Shown here: positions 1 to 41,301 of the stretch, in pieces
How positions within the stretch are numbered: position 1 is the stretch's first letter
Layout of the letters: every line of letters begins with the position of its first letter
Assembly: GCA_964016885.1 (NCBI GenBank)
Contig: OZ024742.1
Span: 258,974,001-259,038,000, forward strand
Direction: 5' to 3'
Length of the DNA: 64,000 bases
Source: Eledone cirrhosa
Taxonomy: Eukaryota
Notes under the pieces: model-generated
The model's input: only the letters and a program-made list of their open reading frames with translations
Told to the model about the DNA's origin: nothing
The model's database searches: none
Position numbers and translations under genes: made by a program

Positions 1-287
1 GAATTAATAAATTAAATAATCAGAGCAATATACTATAAAGTATCTGCATAGAATCATTTGATAATATATATACACCATTTCCTCTCCCAATTAGCATAAT
101 TGACCACACACAAAATCAATTAGACTAGGCTATAAGATTAAAAGGCACATATGAAGAAATAGTAGATAAATAAACGACAGCAATCTCTTCGCGACCAACC
201 ACACTAGAATATTTATCGAGCATTTTAACAGCACGTGGAAATGGATTAAATATACCGTCAACCATACACAATTAGGTAATATATATA
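1..287 (-). mobile_element. Fragment of the 688-nt-unit HHR-bearing repeat family (see 33331-34236)
   Basis: Aligns by eye to 33990-34236 and continues into sequence matching up to about 33585; ends in (TA)n. Confidence 0.75.
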
Positions 288-360: not shown

Positions 361-868
361 TTTGAGTTTATGTTGGTTGTATACCAACACCTCAGTATGC
401 AGGCTGGAGCACTCGACGAAGTGCGCAGGTTGGTTTGGTTACTCCGGAGTAGTGTAAAATAAAGTTAAATAAAAGTCAAATGATTAAAATTTAGCTTCGT
501 TTATTACTGCTATATATATTTCAGTGACAGCCATCTTTGGCTGTGACCTCTTCAGGCAGTTTGAATTAGTATGGTATAGACAAATACATATGTTGTTTAG
601 GTGTATGATATTGTCAATACTCTGATATGCCCAGTTCCTTTCTGGGTTGTTAATTCACTTCCAGTTCCCCAGTGAATTAACAACCCAGAAAGGAACTGGG
701 CATATCAGAGTATTGACAATATCATACACCTAAACAACATATGTATTTGTCTATACCATACTAATTCAAACTGCCTGAAGAGGTCACAGCCAAAGATGGC
801 TGTCACTGAAATATATATAGCAGTAATAAACGAAGCTAAATTTTAATCATTTGACTTCTATTTAACTT

Positions 869-875
<7 letters not shown>
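361..875. mobile_element. Fold-back PLE-type insertion: arms 455-659 / 671-875, tail 361-454
   Basis: Near-perfect 205-bp inverted repeat with an 11-nt loop, HHR and AATAAA in each arm, flanked by (TA)n/(GA)n. Confidence 0.85.
770..824 (+). ncRNA. Type I minimal hammerhead ribozyme (mirror copy 506-560 on -)
   Basis: ACTGC-CTGAAGA-GGTCACAGCC(AAAGAT)GGCTGTCACT-GAAA-TATATA-TA-GCAGT; intact core, paired stems I and II, palindromic stem III, AATAAA immediately after. Confidence 0.88.
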
Positions 876-8956: not shown

Positions 8957-9008
<52 letters not shown>

Positions 9009-9009
9009 G

Positions 9010-9193
9010 AAAATGAATGACCCCGACGGCAGAGCTGAAGCGGTTTCGACGGCTATGTCCAGAAATAGCCGTCGAAACGGCTTGAGCTCTGCCGTCGGGG
9101 TCATACATTTTCCTATTACCCACTCTACTCCACTAAGTATTGAGTACTCTGGTGCGTTATAGTCCATCTGGTTCCTTACCACAACTCCTTCGT
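9010..9193 (+). mobile_element. Short hairpin-plus-tail PLE-type insertion, family C
   Basis: About 48-bp fold-back containing the 3' half of an HHR (GAAA-CGGC..GCCG-TC-GGGGTC), 80-nt tail, in (TA)n; also at 15559 and 40837. Confidence 0.85.
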
Positions 9194-12180: not shown

Positions 12181-14235
12181 AACGTTTGTATTTCTAAAGC
12201 AGGTATGGATATAGAATATAAATGCAAATGCAAAAGATATTGTGACAATTAGTCTTTTACCTTAAATGTATTTAAATATCCTTAATTTTCGAGATAATAT
12301 CTCTTCTTCGGAGGGAAGTAAAGTGGTTAAACCAGCGTTCTAAATAGTTTGCCAAGTCATGCTGACAGGAAATGGTATAGAGAATCTCTTCTATCTCTAA
12401 TGTCAAAGAGTGAATGTTAGGTGGATAAAGAGTAGTCTCCCTTTAAAAGGGGTTTTGTACATGTATGTTTAAGGAAAGAAACCTCGGCAATCTTAGAATT
12501 AAGGAAGCCCTGATTATAGACAAAACACAACCACCAATCAAAAATAGACCAGAACTCAACACCCAATTTATAACTTTATAGAGCACCTAGCCCCATACTT
12601 ACACCCATCACCCCTCACACACACGCGCACACGCCCACACACACGCACACACACACATACACACGCTTACACTTCCACTTATTCTCACTCTTGCACACAC
12701 AGAGACCAGTTCTAACACGATAGAGCATCTATCCCCCACATTTACGTATAAAGATATCTTCTCACACTCACACCCACCCACACACACTCACATACTTACA
12801 CCTTCACGTATTCTCCCACATACATGTACAAAATCCCTTTTAAAGGGAGACTACTCTTTATCCACCTAACCTTCACTCTTTGACATTAGAGATAGAAGAG
12901 ATTCTCTATACCATTTCCTGTCAGCATGACTTGGCAAGCTATTTAGAACGCTGGTTTAACCACTTTACTTCCCTCCGAAGAAGAGATATTATCTCGAAAA
13001 TTAATGATATTTAAATAAATTTAAGGTATAAGACTAATTGTCAACAACATATTTTGCATTTGCATTTATATTCTATATCCATACCTGCATTGTTTTGGCT
13101 TTACAAATACAAACGTGTATACCTCATTACACAATGCTTCAAGTGAACTATAACTTCCTCCTTTCCTTACGCCTGAGCCAGGCTCAGTTCACAACTGTAA
13201 AGAAACTCTTCCAGCTATCTGAAAAGCGCGCCAAAGCCGGCTGCCAAACGATGCCTGAATAACAACATCATCCCCAAAACTATCAAAAACTTGCACCTAC
13301 CAACATGCTTCAAATCACCAGGCCTCAAACGATTACTTAGCTACATACAAAAATTCTGCCTAAGAAAACTCATACAACACCTACACCGCACGCTACAACA
13401 ACACATACGGACTATTTCCAGCCTTGTACCACAACTCACTGAAACCCCAGAACCTCTGCCCAGAATTATCTCCGCCGCTATAGACAGGTCATACCACCAT
13501 CGTAGAGACTACGAGAAACTACGCCTAACGCAAAAATTTCTCAAACTCAGCGCGGCTAACCGTCTTAACAACATCCCAACTCTAAACACCAACAGAGGCG
13601 AACAAGACGGTACCAACACCGAACCTACCGGCGCCCCGACCAACAACACACCTGACGCAAAACACCTCGTCACAGACTTGACAGGATCCCTTCCCGAGAG
13701 GAATTAGACCTCCTCAGCCTGGGTGCCAAGTTCATATTGAAACAGAGACTGGACGTCAAATTATGGCTCGACATAGAAACACATTTCTGTCGGGCTGCCT
13801 ACCAACTAAAATGGATATCGACTCTCGGCAACGACACCACGGAATCTAACAAACCCAGATTCCCGATATACCGACTGGGTCGCCCACTCTGTCCACCGCC
13901 TACCAACCTCGAGCTTGAAGAAAAACTCTCGAGGCTAAAACATTCCGTATTTAACATCTTACGGAAGCAGAAGAAGATAGCCCCAAACCTCTCCAGGACA
14001 CAACAACTCGCCCTGAAGAACCTACGGAATAGGGAAATTATATACTTACCATCCGACAAAGGTAAAGAGTTTTGTGTCATCTCTCAAGCCACATACAACA
14101 ACCTAGCCTTTGAACACCTAAGCGACAATGAACTATATACAGCGATCCATGACATGACTGCAGCCCAGATCGAAAAACAGGCCAACTCCATCTGGTTCGA
14201 CATCTGTAGGAGAAGACAACTCCCAAATAAGCTAC
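12181..14235 (+). mobile_element. Penelope-like retroelement, partial tandem with inverted pseudo-LTR
   Basis: Inverted arms 12181-12467 / 12819-13116; GIY-YIG-type C-terminus FKERNLGNLRIKEALIIDKTQPPIKNRPEL* at 12468-12581; HHR-like motif 12972-13005; the ORF of the next unit starts at 13134. Confidence 0.88.
13134..14235 (+). pseudogene. PLE reverse transcriptase N-terminal region, frameshifted and truncated
   Basis: Motifs CLNNNIIPK, VTDLTGSL..ELDLLSLGAKF and NLSRTQQLALKNLRNREIIYLPSDKGKEFCVI..Y..HLSDNELY (DKG box of PLE RTs); frameshifts near 13250 and 13700. Confidence 0.88.
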
Positions 14236-14940
14236 GACCGATTTTCATGAAACTTTACAGGCTCATAGATCCCTCATCAGCGCATCGTTTTTTTTTTATT
14301 CCGGGGTCACTCTGCAAATAAAAATCGATAGGGGGGTCACCTTTTTTTAGGTATCGAAAAATAAGATTTTTTACTCTAGCTCTGACATTTTGCCACCGAT
14401 TTCGTTCAAAATTTAAAGCAAAATAGAATTCATCATTGCATAACCTGTAATGGCTTTATATTTTGCATTTGCTGTTTAGGAACGGTGTGGAAGCCGCTTA
14501 AATATTCAAAAATACCACTTTTCGACTCAAATTTCTATTATTTCGGCGCTAGATCCCACATTAATCAACCTACTTTGTTCAAATTTTACACTACACTAGA
14601 TAGGATTATTTTACGTCTTAAAGTGGCTTTACATTTTGGATATTTTTGTTCAGGAACGGCGTGGCAGCCGCTTAAATATTTGAAAATACCACCTTTTCGC
14701 TCAAATTTCCGCCATTTCGGCTCTGACTCCCATATTTTTCAACCAAATTCGTTCTCTCCCCCAGTATACCCCTTCGTCAGTCACCCGCGCTTCTCAGTGA
14801 TAGAGGTCATCACAACCCTCCCCCGCATGGCCTGTGTGTGGCCATAGATGAGTCATCGAGAAGCAGTCGCTAAGATCAATACCTTTTCATCAAAGCGGAT
14901 ATTATTTTAGCTACCCAGGCTACGCTGGGTACTACTGCTA

Positions 14941-15558: not shown

Positions 15559-15561
<3 letters not shown>

Positions 15562-15743
15562 AACGAGTAAGACCCCGACGGCTGAGCTCAAGCCGTTTCG
15601 ACGGCTAATTCAGAATTAGCCGTCGAAACGGCTTGATTTCAGCCGTCGGGGTCCTACTCGTTCCTATTACCCACTCTACTACCCTAAGTATTGAGTACTT
15701 TGGTGCGTTATTGTCCACCTGGTTCCTTACCACATTTCCTTCG

Positions 15744-15744
<1 letters not shown>
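15559..15744 (+). mobile_element. Hairpin-plus-tail insertion, family C
   Basis: Same structure as 9010-9193, in (TA)n. Confidence 0.85.
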
Positions 15745-33240: not shown

Positions 33241-33243
<3 letters not shown>

Positions 33244-33321
33244 TGCTAACAAGCAAATATGTACGGTTGTTTAATTGGTACTATCAGCTCTATTGTCAGC
33301 TCTATTTGTATGTTAGCAGTA
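33241..33321. mobile_element. 81-bp miniature element with 19-bp terminal inverted repeats in (TA)n
   Basis: TACTGCTAACA..TGTTAGCAGTA; inverted copy 34431-34511 has perfect 19-bp TIRs; partial copies 32922-32961 and 34558-34620. Confidence 0.75.
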
Positions 33322-33330
33322 TATATATAT

Positions 33331-34235
33331 ATACTATAGAGTAAAGCATGTCCAGAGAATTATTTGATAATATATATACATCATCTCTACTCCCAATCAC
33401 CATAATTAACCACACAAAAGATCAAGTAGACCAGGCTATAAGAATAAAAGGCACCCATGAAGAAACAGTAAATAAATACGCCACAGCAGCGTCTTCGGAG
33501 CCAACCGCTATAGATTATTTACGCAACATTTCAACAGCACGTAGAAATTAATTAAATATACGGTCAACCATACATAATTAGGTAAGAATTAAAGTTAGAA
33601 ATGCTTATATACATACCAGGATTAAATCACTAAATGCCGACCCATTGGTTTCGCTCACATTTTGAGATATCTTATTAAGGATAAATCTCGAGTTTAGAGC
33701 TCTTCAGGGGAAAAACTCGTTAGGACAGATTGTTTTTCGAAGTGGCCCCAGCCAAACACGAATTCAAAATGTTTGAGAACTGTGACGTGGTAGTGGACAA
33801 GTCGGGAAGGGTGTGATTGGTTGCTTACGCCGAGTGGGTTGGTTGCTAGAAAGCGCAGCCCAATATCGCCCAAATTGTATCTCAAACTTATGGGAGATTA
33901 TTAAATATAAATATTTACACATACACCAATTAAACAAAGTCACAGGTATATATGCGTTTTGGCAACTATTCACGATGTGGCTCAATGAAGAATTAATACA
34001 TTAAATAATCAGAGCAAAATACTATAGAGGAAACCATGTCCAGAGAATTATTTGATAATATATATACATCATCTCTACTCGCAATCAGCATAATTAACCG
34101 CACAAAAAATCAATTAGACCAGGCTACAAGAATAAAAGGCACCTATGAAGAAACAGTAAATAAATACGCCACAGCAGCGTCTTCGCGGCCAACCGCTATA
34201 GAATGTTTACTCAACATTTCAACAGCACGTGGAAA

Positions 34236-34236
<1 letters not shown>
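33331..34236 (-). mobile_element. HHR-bearing partial tandem, 688-nt unit
   Basis: Direct repeat 33331-33548 / 34019-34236, (TA)n on both sides, one HHR inside. Confidence 0.75.
33636..33710 (-). ncRNA. Type I hammerhead ribozyme motif
   Basis: CCC-CTGAAGA-GCTC..GAGAT..ATCTC..GAGC-GAAA-CC(AATG)GG-TC-GGC; GUC site; stem I short. Confidence 0.78.
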
Positions 34237-34359: not shown

Positions 34360-34433
<74 letters not shown>

Positions 34434-34508
34434 TGCTAACATGCAAATAGAGCTGACAATCGAGCTGAGAGTACCAATTAATCAACCCTACATATTTGCA
34501 TGTTAGCA

Positions 34509-34560
<52 letters not shown>

Positions 34561-35299
34561 TGTTAACATGCAAATATGTACGGTTGATGCTGATTAATTG
34601 GTACTATCAGCTCTATTGTAGTGCACGGGATAAAAATGATTTCAGCGTTTCAATACACGTTTTATTGAACTATGTTGTTGCTAATGTAAAAGGATATATT
34701 CTTTAAGAAATTGCCTCAAGTCATTCTGCTATTACCAACTGCTATTACTTTCGAAGTCAAACGAACCGTCAAACGACGAACCTCAGACCTATTCAGAAAC
34801 ATTCTCTCTTCGTCGCTACTTCCACAATATTAGAGTATGTCTTCCTTGTAAAGCTTAAAGCACTAGGGAATGAAGCAAAACAAAATGATGGTAAATTCTG
34901 CATTGTGAGACAGGTGGAATAGAATAGACACAAAGGGACAGTGGATTAGTTAAAACGTAGGAGTTTCAAAGAATGCAAAGAAAATGCGATAATAAACCAA
35001 AGAAATGGAGACATGTGATTGAAAAAGTATATGCACAAAAGTAGGAGCGATGTGTGAAGTAGAAATATTTACGCAATGTAGAAAGAAAGGAAAGGGTTTA
35101 ACATATCAAGTTAAACCATTTATAAAAGAAATGCAATAACAGAAAATAAAACAGCACGAACAAGGAAAAAAGGCAAGAAAGATACTGATTTGCCGAAGAA
35201 ATATAGTTTGAATGGCTACAGCCTAGAGAATAATATTTGCATGAACAAACAAACACACTCTCCCAGGGCATATATATATATGCATGTGTGTGTGTGTGT

Positions 35300-36185: not shown

Positions 36186-37143
36186 TTTCTGAATTTGTTT
36201 AGCAAGATTCTTTATCTGAAATCGTGTGTTGAAGCGGATATTGTTATACTTTGGGAGGGTCATGTTGCCAATAAGAAACACACGCACCAGTTGCTTTCAC
36301 TTCAATTTATTATATATTTATAAATTTATAAATTTACAAATCTAGAAACTTATAAATTTCTGGCTGGTTGGTTGGTTCCACAACCAGATAGTTGTTTATA
36401 TATAGTCATAGTCCTTTCGTCACACACTCTGTGACCTCTGTAGGCTAGTTCGCCTCTAGGCTTGTATTGATGAACATTACACTCTGGTATTTATTGCTAT
36501 CATACCATGAGTTTATTCTATTGGCCTTGTTCCTAGTTCTTTCTATTCTATTCCAAAATTTGCTCCTATACAAGGGGCAGGTCCCATTTATGTCATTATT
36601 TACCATTTTTTCCCATTTGGTTCTGGCTCCTCTATACACTCTGATTCTATCTCTCTGATTATAGCCAGAGAACTGCATACGGTGGATGAAGTGTTGTATG
36701 TGTCTCTCTAGTTCTTCGGGGTTGCACATGCGGGACACATTTCTCATCACCCGTACCAAATCCGCAATCAGTATGTTGATTTTGGTATGGTCCGAAATGG
36801 CCGAGTTTCGGTGGATCAGATGTTTGGAAGTCATGGGTTTGGCACAATGGGAATTGAGGATTTGTTTTTGGTTGTTAATGGTATCTAACCAGAGCTCTGT
36901 GTCTAGTACAGGTAATCGATGGTTGGGGTGTCTACTTGGGTAGTCTATAGTAACTCTAATGCAGAGTGTGTGACAAAAGGACTATGACTATATATAAACA
37001 ACTATCTGGTTGTGGAACCAACCAACCAGAAATTTATAAGTTTGTAGATTTGTAAATTTATAAATTTATAAATATATAATAAATTTAAGTGAAAGCAACT
37101 GGTGCATGTGTTTCTTATTGGCAACATGACCCTCCCAAAGTAT

Positions 37144-37150
<7 letters not shown>
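36184..37150 (-). mobile_element. Penelope-like element, family K: inverted pseudo-LTR, RT fragment, 3' pseudo-LTR and tail
   Basis: Arms 36238-36440 / 36962-37150 each with an HHR 3' half; tail 36184-36237; (TA)n flanks. Confidence 0.9.
36445..36960 (-). pseudogene. PLE reverse transcriptase C-terminal core and thumb fragment
   Basis: DYPSRHPNHRLPVLDTELW..HCAKPMTSKHLIHRNSA..RMQFSGY..CPLYRSKFW..SWY..SVMFI. Confidence 0.9.
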
Positions 37151-39855: not shown

Positions 39856-39959
39856 GTTATGTAATAAACAACATAATGCAATTATTCCATTTACCAGTGG
39901 TTTCTTAAAAGCAAAAAATGTTGCTTTCATCCTCAGAATGAAAAAATTCTGGTCTCTTT

Positions 39960-40533
39960 TTAACTGCATCCTGGATTTGTTCCCGTATGATTTGAACTAG
40001 TGATCTTGGACTTCATAGATGGGCAACAAGAGTAACTGATCTTAACTACGTTCCTATTAAATATCTTATAATATCTATGATTAGGAGGAAAATGTTTGTC
40101 TAAGAGTTCAAGGAATTTCCTTCCTACATGAGTTTTACGGTTAGAGAGAAGGGGGGGGGTGAATCAAATAATTTTCCTTTTCCTGTTATTGTGGTTATTT
40201 TTAGGGGGTGGGTGGGGGGTGGAGTAGGTAAATAATATTTTTTTCCTGTAAAACCGCTGTTCTTAAGGGCTTTATTATAATAAGGGGCGCCTTTATTAAA
40301 AATGTCTATAGACAAAGATAAGGTAGAATTCCTACGGCTAATGTTATAATGTTAGGAATAAGATTATTAAAAACTATAGGGGGATGGAAAGACTCTTTGT
40401 GTATATGCCTAAGATTTTCATTAGGTGTATGATAGGGTGTAAAAGAGGCGGTAAGTAGATCAAGATTAATATCAAGAAAGTTAGCAATGGTAAGGTTCGT
40501 GTCTATAGTGATTTTAAGGTTAAGATTAGCAAA
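39960..40533 (-). pseudogene. PLE reverse transcriptase thumb and linker fragment
   Basis: LKITIDTNLTIANFLDINLDL..FTPYHTPN..HKESFHPP; YYNKALKNSGF; PPFSLTVK; KHFPPNHRL..IFNRNVVKISYSC. Confidence 0.88.
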
Positions 40534-40562
40534 ACACACACATATATATATATATACAGTAT

Positions 40563-40789
40563 ATGCCTGTATACATATATGTATGTACGTATACATACTT
40601 ATATTTAAGTAACAGCCGTACTAAGAGTGAGAAATGAAATGGTATATATTTTATCTGGTGATTCTATAGACATGTATTATGATATATAGCTCTGATTATT
40701 TAATTTATTAACTTTTCATTGAGCCACAAAGTGACCCGTTGCAAAACACGTATATGTATGTATGTATATAGATATATAGATATATGTAA

Positions 40790-40839
<50 letters not shown>

Positions 40840-41027
40840 AACCAGTAAGACCCCGACAGCTGAGCTCAAGCCGTTTCGACGGCTAATTCTGGACCAGAAT
40901 TAGCCGTCGAAACGGCTTGAGCTCAGCTGTCGGGGTCTTACTGGTTCCTATTACCCACTCTACTACCTCAAGTATTGAGTACTTTGGTGCGTTATGGTCC
41001 ACCTGGTTCCTTACCACATTTCCTTCG

Positions 41028-41072
<45 letters not shown>

Positions 41073-41301
41073 TTTACATATATCTATATATCTATATACA
41101 TACATACATATACGTGTTTTGCAACGGGTCACTTTGTGGCTCAATGAAAAGTTAATAAATTAAATAATCAGAGCTATATATCATAAAACATGTCTATAGA
41201 ATCACCAGATAAAATATATACCATTTCATTTCTCACTCTTAGTGCGGCTGTTACTTAAATATAAGTATGTATACGTACATACATATATGTATACAGGCGT
41301 A
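40563..41301. repeat. Outer inverted repeat 40563-40794 / 41068-41301 around a nested hairpin element
   Basis: About 230-bp near-identical inverted arms; part matches 33975-34050, part matches 19920-20000 and 50825-50900. Confidence 0.85.
40837..41028 (+). mobile_element. Hairpin-plus-tail insertion, family C
   Basis: Essentially perfect fold-back of about 56 bp plus 80-nt tail, in (TA)n. Confidence 0.88.

What the first reader, a model, noticed from the sequence alone, without database searches (positions are those of the whole stretch)
33331..34236. Second HHR-bearing circularly permuted repeat, 688-nt unit
A 218-bp direct repeat at period 688 encloses one HHR (33636-33710, -) and a GC-richer stretch with CCAAT and TGACGT motifs (33780-33870). 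The copy at 1-287 extends past both ends of the repeated segment, consistent with a continuous circular or tandem unit. Related sequence occurs in the 40563-41301 arms. No ORF is recognisable. It is a candidate long retrozyme or non-autonomous PLE.
Basis: partly seen in the sequence, partly recalled or inferred. Interest (0 to 1): 0.7.

Follow-up and report, generated by a model that had tools for sequence, protein, structure and literature searches.

The report
Hammerhead retrozyme riding Hydra-type Penelope elements
This is one copy of a dispersed 688-base non-coding repeat that carries a predicted self-cutting RNA (hammerhead ribozyme); its fixed insertion ends and a small RNA hairpin shared with Hydra-type Penelope jumping genes indicate that those genes' enzymes likely copy it, which makes the copying signal directly testable.

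Summary
Window 33334-34236 is a 1.3-unit copy of a 688-nt non-coding unit with one type I hammerhead, present in at least several hundred places in this 3.0-Gb genome (384 exact matches to a 20-mer). Ends are not randomly permuted: the RNA 3' end is fixed at one of two sites 120 nt apart, next to (TA)n (107 of 113), and 5' ends vary. In two-armed inverted insertions one arm ends at each site (28 of 34; 2 more after discounting nested insertions; 4 unresolved). Sister subfamilies (86% and 73% identical; window 1-279 and the 40562-41301 arms) keep the ribozyme stems by compensatory changes. A hairpin just after site 1 is shared with three autonomous Hydra-type Penelope families here and with three published Hydra elements, but is not part of two other Penelope families tested. 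Best reading: a non-autonomous Hydra-clade Penelope element (animal non-LTR retrozyme). No direct parent was found. Cleavage, expression and a circular RNA are untested, and the window copy's ribozyme has a damaged stem I.

The parts
33334..34236 (-). Whole insertion, subfamily F1: one 688-nt unit plus a 215-nt second pass; RNA sense is the minus strand; 5' end truncated at about 34236
33334..33348 (-). Fixed 3' end, site 1 (u1), abutting (TA)n at 33320-33333
   Evidence: 71 of 127 arms end here; flank
33634..33712 (-). Type I hammerhead with long helix II; predicted cut between 33639 and 33638. This copy has 2 non-pairs in the 5-bp stem I and a broken helix III palindrome; the family majority has none
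   Evidence: covariation
33780..33870 (-). GC-rich putative internal promoter upstream of the ribozyme (TGACGTGG 33783-33790, CCAAT boxes, two GTTGC half-sites at 33820-33828 and 33842-33849). Partly conserved in F2 and F3. Factor names (CRE, NF-Y, RFX) are recalled; activity untested
33902..34021 (-). 120-nt 'tail' between site 1 and site 2 (u688 to u569); site 2 at about 33902-33906 is the second fixed 3' end in the family, internal in this copy
   Evidence: 42 of 127 arms end at site 2
33980..34015 (-). Hairpin GCTCTG...CAT(A/T)GAGC starting 6 nt after site 1; shared with autonomous Hydra-type Penelope elements
34022..34236 (-). Second pass (u1-215), 93% identical to 33334-33548, followed by a long (TA)n array
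1..279 (-). 5'-truncated end of a 1.37-unit copy of sister subfamily F2 (about 86% to F1) that starts about 650 nt before the window
   Evidence: L189 4350-5279
40562..40793 (+). Arm holding a sister subfamily F3 fragment (about 73% to F1; site 2, tail, hairpin at 40689, first 59 nt) joined to another small repeat
41070..41301 (-). Inverted twin of that arm (98.7% identical), hairpin at 41174

Best explanation
This is a non-coding 688-nt retroelement with two fixed 3' ends at (TA)n targets, and it is likely copied in trans by the reverse transcriptase/GIY-YIG protein of Hydra-clade Penelope-like elements. Shown: closed unit, no ORF, covarying hammerhead, two fixed 3' ends 120 nt apart, variable 5' ends, one arm from each site in inverted insertions, and the same ribozyme - site 1 - hairpin - site 2 layout in autonomous Hydra families. 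Inferred: the GC-rich block is a promoter; a source locus of two or more units is transcribed; the Hydra protein binds the tail hairpin, nicks (TA)n on both strands and starts cDNA inside the RNA, at site 1 from one strand and site 2 from the other. One surviving arm gives a 1.x-unit copy like the window's; two give an inverted insertion. The template is multimeric, partly cleaved or circular RNA; I put a real contribution from circles at about one in two. The window copy has one damaged ribozyme and is probably a dead end.
For: Ends: 27 of 29 distinct loci found with a query that lacked site 1 have an outer 3' end at site 1 or 2. Over 120 fetched loci (91 clusters, 127 arms): 71 site 1, 42 site 2, 14 other; 107 of 113 beside (TA)n. 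Two-armed loci: 28 of 34 pair site 1 with site 2, 2 look like 1+1 but are split by a nested insertion with the site-2 tail beyond it, 4 unresolved (p 9e-7 against 50%, counting the 2 against). Ribozyme: compensatory changes in helix II (3 of 5 pairs, 15 sequences) and in helices I and II (3 of 14 pairs, 9 sequences); helix III stays palindromic in three different sequences. Hydra link: family A (714-aa ORF) has the RWK, DKT, CxCX5C, CxxC and CxH motifs given for Hydra, ends at about 94-99 and 163-169 around its hairpin at 103-123; family H2 ends at 305 and 406 around its hairpin at 312-333, and its 2 two-armed loci both pair the sites; a third family has the hairpin at both ends of its ORF (L281). 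Pattern hits by chance: 2-5 per shuffle of 1.11 Mb. The hairpin is readable in published Hydra-1_Ajap, Hydra-2_Ajap and Hydra-2_Amil. Internal initiation at two sites that define the tail, with both strands cut and extended, was shown in vitro for a Poseidon element (PMC11167929).
Against: No autonomous element with sequence homology to the unit was found (blastn and nhmmer over 103 Penelope loci, best non-nested hit E 0.05), so the partner rests on a short motif and layout. The hairpin was not seen in the printed ends of Hydra-1_Obim (ends only). Searches score only the 40 best candidates, and select for the two ends. No A-to-G editing excess: 7.4 against 5.7 per kb for the mirror change, p 0.06. 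Rfam support is weak. Covariation counts rest on three or four related subfamilies, so on few events. One of 11 family C loci (L148) has an unassigned pair of hairpin hits. Fold-back synthesis plus endonuclease resolution could also give the site pairing.
Confidence: 0.75

Rival explanations
1. Strict retrozyme model: two hammerheads excise a 688-nt monomer, a host ligase closes it, and the circle is the main template (rolling-circle reverse transcription).
For: 36 of 46 arms that reach the ribozyme run through its cut site. L034 has 2.5 units that diverged independently, so one event copied more than two units. A linear transcript from the internal promoter cannot recreate that promoter (inference). 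Circular fold -174 kcal/mol, z about -4.6 against 20 crude shuffles. Circles are shown for other animal retrozymes (PMC7229834).
Against: Only 1 of 91 clusters is an original insertion over two units; the other 2.5-mer (L003) is a later duplication. No other second pass goes beyond u425, near the predicted start site. 5' ends are modestly enriched at the cut site (8 of 48 loci against 49 of 855, p 0.008 uncorrected, highest of 23 windows), which points to some cut linear templates. Uncleaved RNA was the main substrate in PMC11167929.
Confidence: 0.35
2. The unit is mobilised by a different (TA)n-targeting Penelope family, such as family B (1,277-aa ORF with its own hammerhead) or family C (905-aa ORF).
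For: Both are abundant with long open frames, and B fragments abut (TA)n in the window.
Against: No hairpin belonging to their own ends in 9 B and 11 C loci; no homology to the unit.
Confidence: 0.1
3. The unit is only the terminal repeat of an undiscovered autonomous element whose copies are mostly truncated.
For: Penelope copies are often 5'-truncated; many Penelope families here were not sampled to full length.
Against: The unit closes u688 to u1 in F1, F2 and F3, and arms run a full unit and into a second pass with no other sequence between.
Confidence: 0.08
4. A DNA-level repeat (satellite, MITE or segmental duplication) with an incidental ribozyme-like motif.
For: Local duplication occurs (L003); the window has many inverted repeats.
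Against: Polar ends, 5' truncation, site pairing, dispersal over many chromosomes and stem covariation.
Confidence: 0.02

Closest known systems
Animal non-LTR retrozymes (PMC7229834, passages and section 16 read; bioRxiv 10.64898/2026.07.22.740005, parts 1-3 of 5 read)
   Same: Non-coding, low-GC (37%) unit with one type I hammerhead, head-to-tail closure, co-occurring with Penelope elements; both papers propose Penelope elements as mobilisers.
   Different: Longer than the 170-400 nt RNAs of PMC7229834 but inside the 51-972 bp range of the preprint. Mostly dispersed 0.3-1.6-unit copies, not arrays (2 of 91 clusters have two ribozymes in tandem). The parts read give no end map, site pairing or clade-specific signal. 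RNA and circles untested here.
Hydra-clade Penelope-like elements (PMC8557442; passages, section 11, supplement part 2 and supplement search hits read)
   Same: (TA)n target, hammerhead with a near-palindromic helix III, tail at one end, inverted 5'-truncated arm, shared hairpin after site 1.
   Different: No ORF; tail of 120 nt against about 70 (A) and 101 (H2) here and 30-40 in the paper; no alignable homology beyond the hairpin. The supplement search found no 'nonautonomous' or 'hairpin' entry.
Poseidon element PAc of green anole (PMC11167929; parts 1-2 of 4 read)
   Same: Two internal initiation sites that delimit the tail, AT-rich target, both strands used, ribozyme upstream of the sites.
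   Different: PAc is autonomous, of another clade, with adjacent sites; no strand-to-site assignment was found in vitro, whereas genomic arms here pair the sites.
Non-autonomous Chlamys elements such as MRC1 (PMC8557442, passage)
   Same: Non-coding Penelope derivatives with terminal repeats and head-to-tail copies.
   Different: Those resemble their autonomous partner at the 3' end, and their clade generally lacks canonical hammerheads.

Membership tests
Animal non-LTR retrozyme | Type I hammerhead in each unit | tested here: met
   Core intact in 53 of 63 F1 copies; covariation
Animal non-LTR retrozyme | No coding capacity, GC under 45-50% | tested here: met
   Longest stop-free stretch 72 codons; 37% GC
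Animal non-LTR retrozyme | At least two tandem ribozyme-bearing units (the preprint's 'active' criterion) | tested here: inconclusive
   Not met by the window copy; met by 2 of 91 clusters (L003, L034)
Animal non-LTR retrozyme | Self-cleavage and circular RNA in vivo | not testable with these tools
   Needs a cleavage assay and RNA data
Penelope-like element (non-autonomous) | Fixed 3' end, 5' truncation, partial tandems | tested here: met
Penelope-like element (non-autonomous) | Optional tail at one end; inverted 5'-truncated arm | tested here: met
   120-nt tail; 28 of 34 two-armed loci pair the sites
Penelope-like element (non-autonomous) | Sequence homology to an autonomous element's terminal repeat | tested here: not met
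   None in 103 loci beyond the short hairpin; sampling of families is incomplete
Hydra-clade dependence | (TA)n target and Hydra-type hammerhead | tested here: met
   107 of 113 ends; helix III type compared by eye with supplement file S2. Neither is unique to Hydra
Hydra-clade dependence | Hairpin between the two start sites (feature defined here, not in the paper) | tested here: met
   3 of 3 Hydra-type families whose terminal repeat was captured; not part of B or C ends
Hydra-clade dependence | Mobilisation by the Hydra protein | not testable with these tools
   Needs in vitro priming
Autonomous Penelope element | RT and GIY-YIG ORF | tested here: not met
Plant LTR retrozyme | Type III hammerheads in both LTRs | tested here: not met
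   One type I motif per unit, none in the 215-bp repeat

The most novel reading that the evidence does not exclude
A cross-phylum RNA hairpin is the recognition signal of Hydra-clade Penelope enzymes. A dimeric enzyme primes from both target strands at two sites flanking it, one site per strand, and a whole superfamily of self-promoting hammerhead RNAs in this genome replicates as circles by carrying only that hairpin.
Probability: 0.35. Interest if true: 0.75.

Novelty: new variant of a known kind. Interest (0 to 1): 0.5.

Why it matters
Papers propose that Penelope elements mobilise animal retrozymes, but the parts I read do not name the enzyme or the signal. This family gives both as candidates, with intact partner ORFs in the same genome, so an existing in vitro assay (PMC11167929) can test them. 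The one-arm-per-site rule would also explain why the Penelope tail sits at one end only. The idea itself is not new, and unchecked notes from this scan report the same pattern for other families in this genome.

Tried and rejected
Rfam: nothing at gathering score; only weak HH9. Pfam on 7 window ORF fragments and the family A ORF: no informative hit. RNA runs: no RNA holder listed. Three runs of unknown kind, kept as contigs, cover the unit and the u1/u688 joint but say nothing on expression or circles; a loose-end motif from them was absent from my loci. Search for a direct autonomous parent: three protein searches, stretches fetched around them, no homology. A-to-I editing scars: not significant. 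A GT donor at 33611-33619 and a candidate acceptor were noticed; splicing was not tested. L003 rejected as rolling-circle evidence: units 1 and 2 are identical over u351-688, a later duplication. The per-arm cut-site excess (10 of 51 against 49 of 914, p 6e-4) counted two arms of one locus twice; the per-locus figure does not survive correction for 23 windows. F3 ends showed no pile-up at the cut site; F2 had 3 of 20 loci within 4 nt of it (biased sample, output partly cut). Lower mutation in the ribozyme core was not used, since one query selected for it. Scan look-ups by place and by sequence gave nothing. Supplements of the preprint were closed and may hold related families or end maps; Repbase and Dfam could not be checked.

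Full report
Observation. The repeat is 33334-33548 / 34022-34236, 215 bp at 93.0%, period 688. I number the unit u1-u688 = 33334-34021. A type I hammerhead lies on the minus strand at 33634-33712, with the predicted cut after 33639. Rfam sees it only weakly and the window copy does not fold into it freely. The reason is decay: the family majority pairs all of stem I and has a palindromic helix III, while this copy has two non-pairs in stem I and a broken palindrome. The CCAAT and TGACGT motifs and the 56% GC block are where stated, and there is no ORF.

Family. The window lies in a 3.0-Gb genome. A 20-mer at the unit's start occurs 384 times exactly, the reversed control 0 times; given about 3-4% divergence this suggests several hundred insertions (inference). 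Four DNA searches scored 40 candidates each, of 4459, 540, 954 and 1388, and I fetched 30 loci from each. These merge into 91 clusters with 127 arms of at least 88% identity. The samples favour well-conserved copies, and select for the ends.

Ends. The RNA 3' end is fixed: 71 arms at u1-11 (site 1), 42 at about u569 (site 2) and 14 elsewhere, mostly inner fragments or arms cut by nested insertions; 107 of 113 fixed ends abut (TA)n. With the query that lacked site 1, 27 of 29 distinct loci still end at one of the sites. 5' ends vary. Of 34 two-armed inverted loci, 28 have one arm from each site, 2 look like site 1 twice but are split by a nested insertion with the site-2 tail beyond it, and 4 are unresolved. 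Repeats inside one locus share rare variants more often than copies at different loci (14 of 6179 tandem and 28 of 5522 opposed sites, against 0.03%), which fits one source per insertion, or later conversion. This is the Penelope pattern of partial tandem, inverted arm and one-sided tail (PMC8557442, passages). In vitro the tail is the stretch between two internal initiation sites (PMC11167929, parts 1-2 of 4).

Sister subfamilies. Window 1-279 is the end of a 1.37-unit copy of subfamily F2 (86% to F1), and the 40562-41301 arms hold F3 fragments (73%). Both close on themselves at 655-681 nt and, in the loci seen, use the same two sites. Helices I and II change on both sides and helix III stays palindromic in three different sequences. 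These counts rest on few independent events. More distant relatives occur (L231, L241, L218, L221).

Mobiliser. Three Penelope fragments in the window led to abundant families with long open frames: A (714 aa), B (1,277 aa) and C (905 aa). None aligns with the unit. However, a hairpin GCTCTG...CAT(A/T)GAGC starts 6 nt after site 1 in F1 and has the same place in family A (ends at about 94-99 and 163-169, hairpin 103-123) and in family H2 (ends 305 and 406, hairpin 312-333, both two-armed loci pairing the sites). A third family has it at both ends of its ORF. A has the RWK, DKT, CxCX5C, CxxC and CxH motifs listed for the Hydra clade; H2 and the third family are assigned by 33-71% protein similarity to A, and no tree was built. 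The pattern gives 2-5 hits per shuffle of 1.11 Mb. It is not part of the ends in 9 B and 11 C loci; the hits there are a nested F3 copy and an unassigned pair in L148. It can be read in published Hydra-1_Ajap, Hydra-2_Ajap and Hydra-2_Amil, but not in the printed ends of Hydra-1_Obim. Hydra elements target (TA)n.

Template. Unresolved. 36 of 46 arms that reach the ribozyme pass its cut site, and L034 is an original 2.5-unit insertion, so templates were circular or uncleaved multimers. Against a circle-only route: L034 is the only such case in 91 clusters, other second passes stop by u425, and 5' ends are modestly enriched at the cut (8 of 48 against 49 of 855 per locus, p 0.008 uncorrected, not significant over 23 windows). 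No editing signal was found.

Known and new. Animal retrozymes as non-autonomous Penelope derivatives are proposed in PMC7229834 (passages and section 16) and in bioRxiv 10.64898/2026.07.22.740005 (parts 1-3 of 5; supplements closed). Seven completed literature searches and two supplement searches showed no non-autonomous Hydra element, hairpin signal or site-pairing rule; the library lacks most subscription papers and Repbase. PMC13282606 (passages) has no mention of retrozymes or hammerheads. Unchecked notes from this scan describe the same two-armed pattern and a Hydra start signal for other families in this genome; I saw them after reaching this reading, and they are not independent support.

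Verdict. A real, well-supported non-autonomous Penelope-type retrozyme, likely Hydra-driven (0.75). A new variant of a known kind; interest 0.5.

Noticed in passing
window 457-873: 417-bp palindrome with a type I hammerhead of another family on each arm (563 minus, 767 plus); also matches L113.
   Followed up: no
window about 39856-39944 (-) and 40309-40530 (-): Terminal ribozyme and an RT-thumb fragment of Hydra-type family A; 24,637 first-look candidates, many with intact 714-aa ORFs; the long 3' region holds a second ribozyme-like copy.
   Followed up: yes
window 13201-14321 (+), inverted repeat 12182-13116: Frameshifted fragment of Penelope family C (905-aa ORF, DKG motif); my scan found no hammerhead in 11 loci.
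   Followed up: partly
window 36448-36981 (-), between inverted ends 36242-36431 and 36962-37147: Fragment of Penelope family B (1,277-aa ORF, own hammerhead, very young copies).
   Followed up: partly
window 40562-41301: The two F3 arms face each other with their 3' ends inward around a (TA)n array and a nested hairpin repeat (40838-41028), the reverse of the usual layout; possibly a local inverted duplication.
   Followed up: partly
window 33243-33319, 34433-34619; 9005-9193, 15560-15744, 40838-41028: Two families of small palindromic repeats nested in (TA)n arrays; the first flanks the finding on both sides.
   Followed up: no
L241, L218, L221, L231, L202, L039: Further sister units (about 60-83% identical), some with oversized helix II and other palindromic helix III sequences.
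   Followed up: partly
L148 2719 and 3324 (-); L009/L280, L100/L283, L210/L285, L084/L284: Other repeats with the same hairpin, one pair 605 nt apart; probably more non-autonomous families.
   Followed up: no
L165 402-1388 (-): Penelope/Poseidon-like ORF fragment (ADKG motif; clade label recalled) next to an F3 copy.
   Followed up: no
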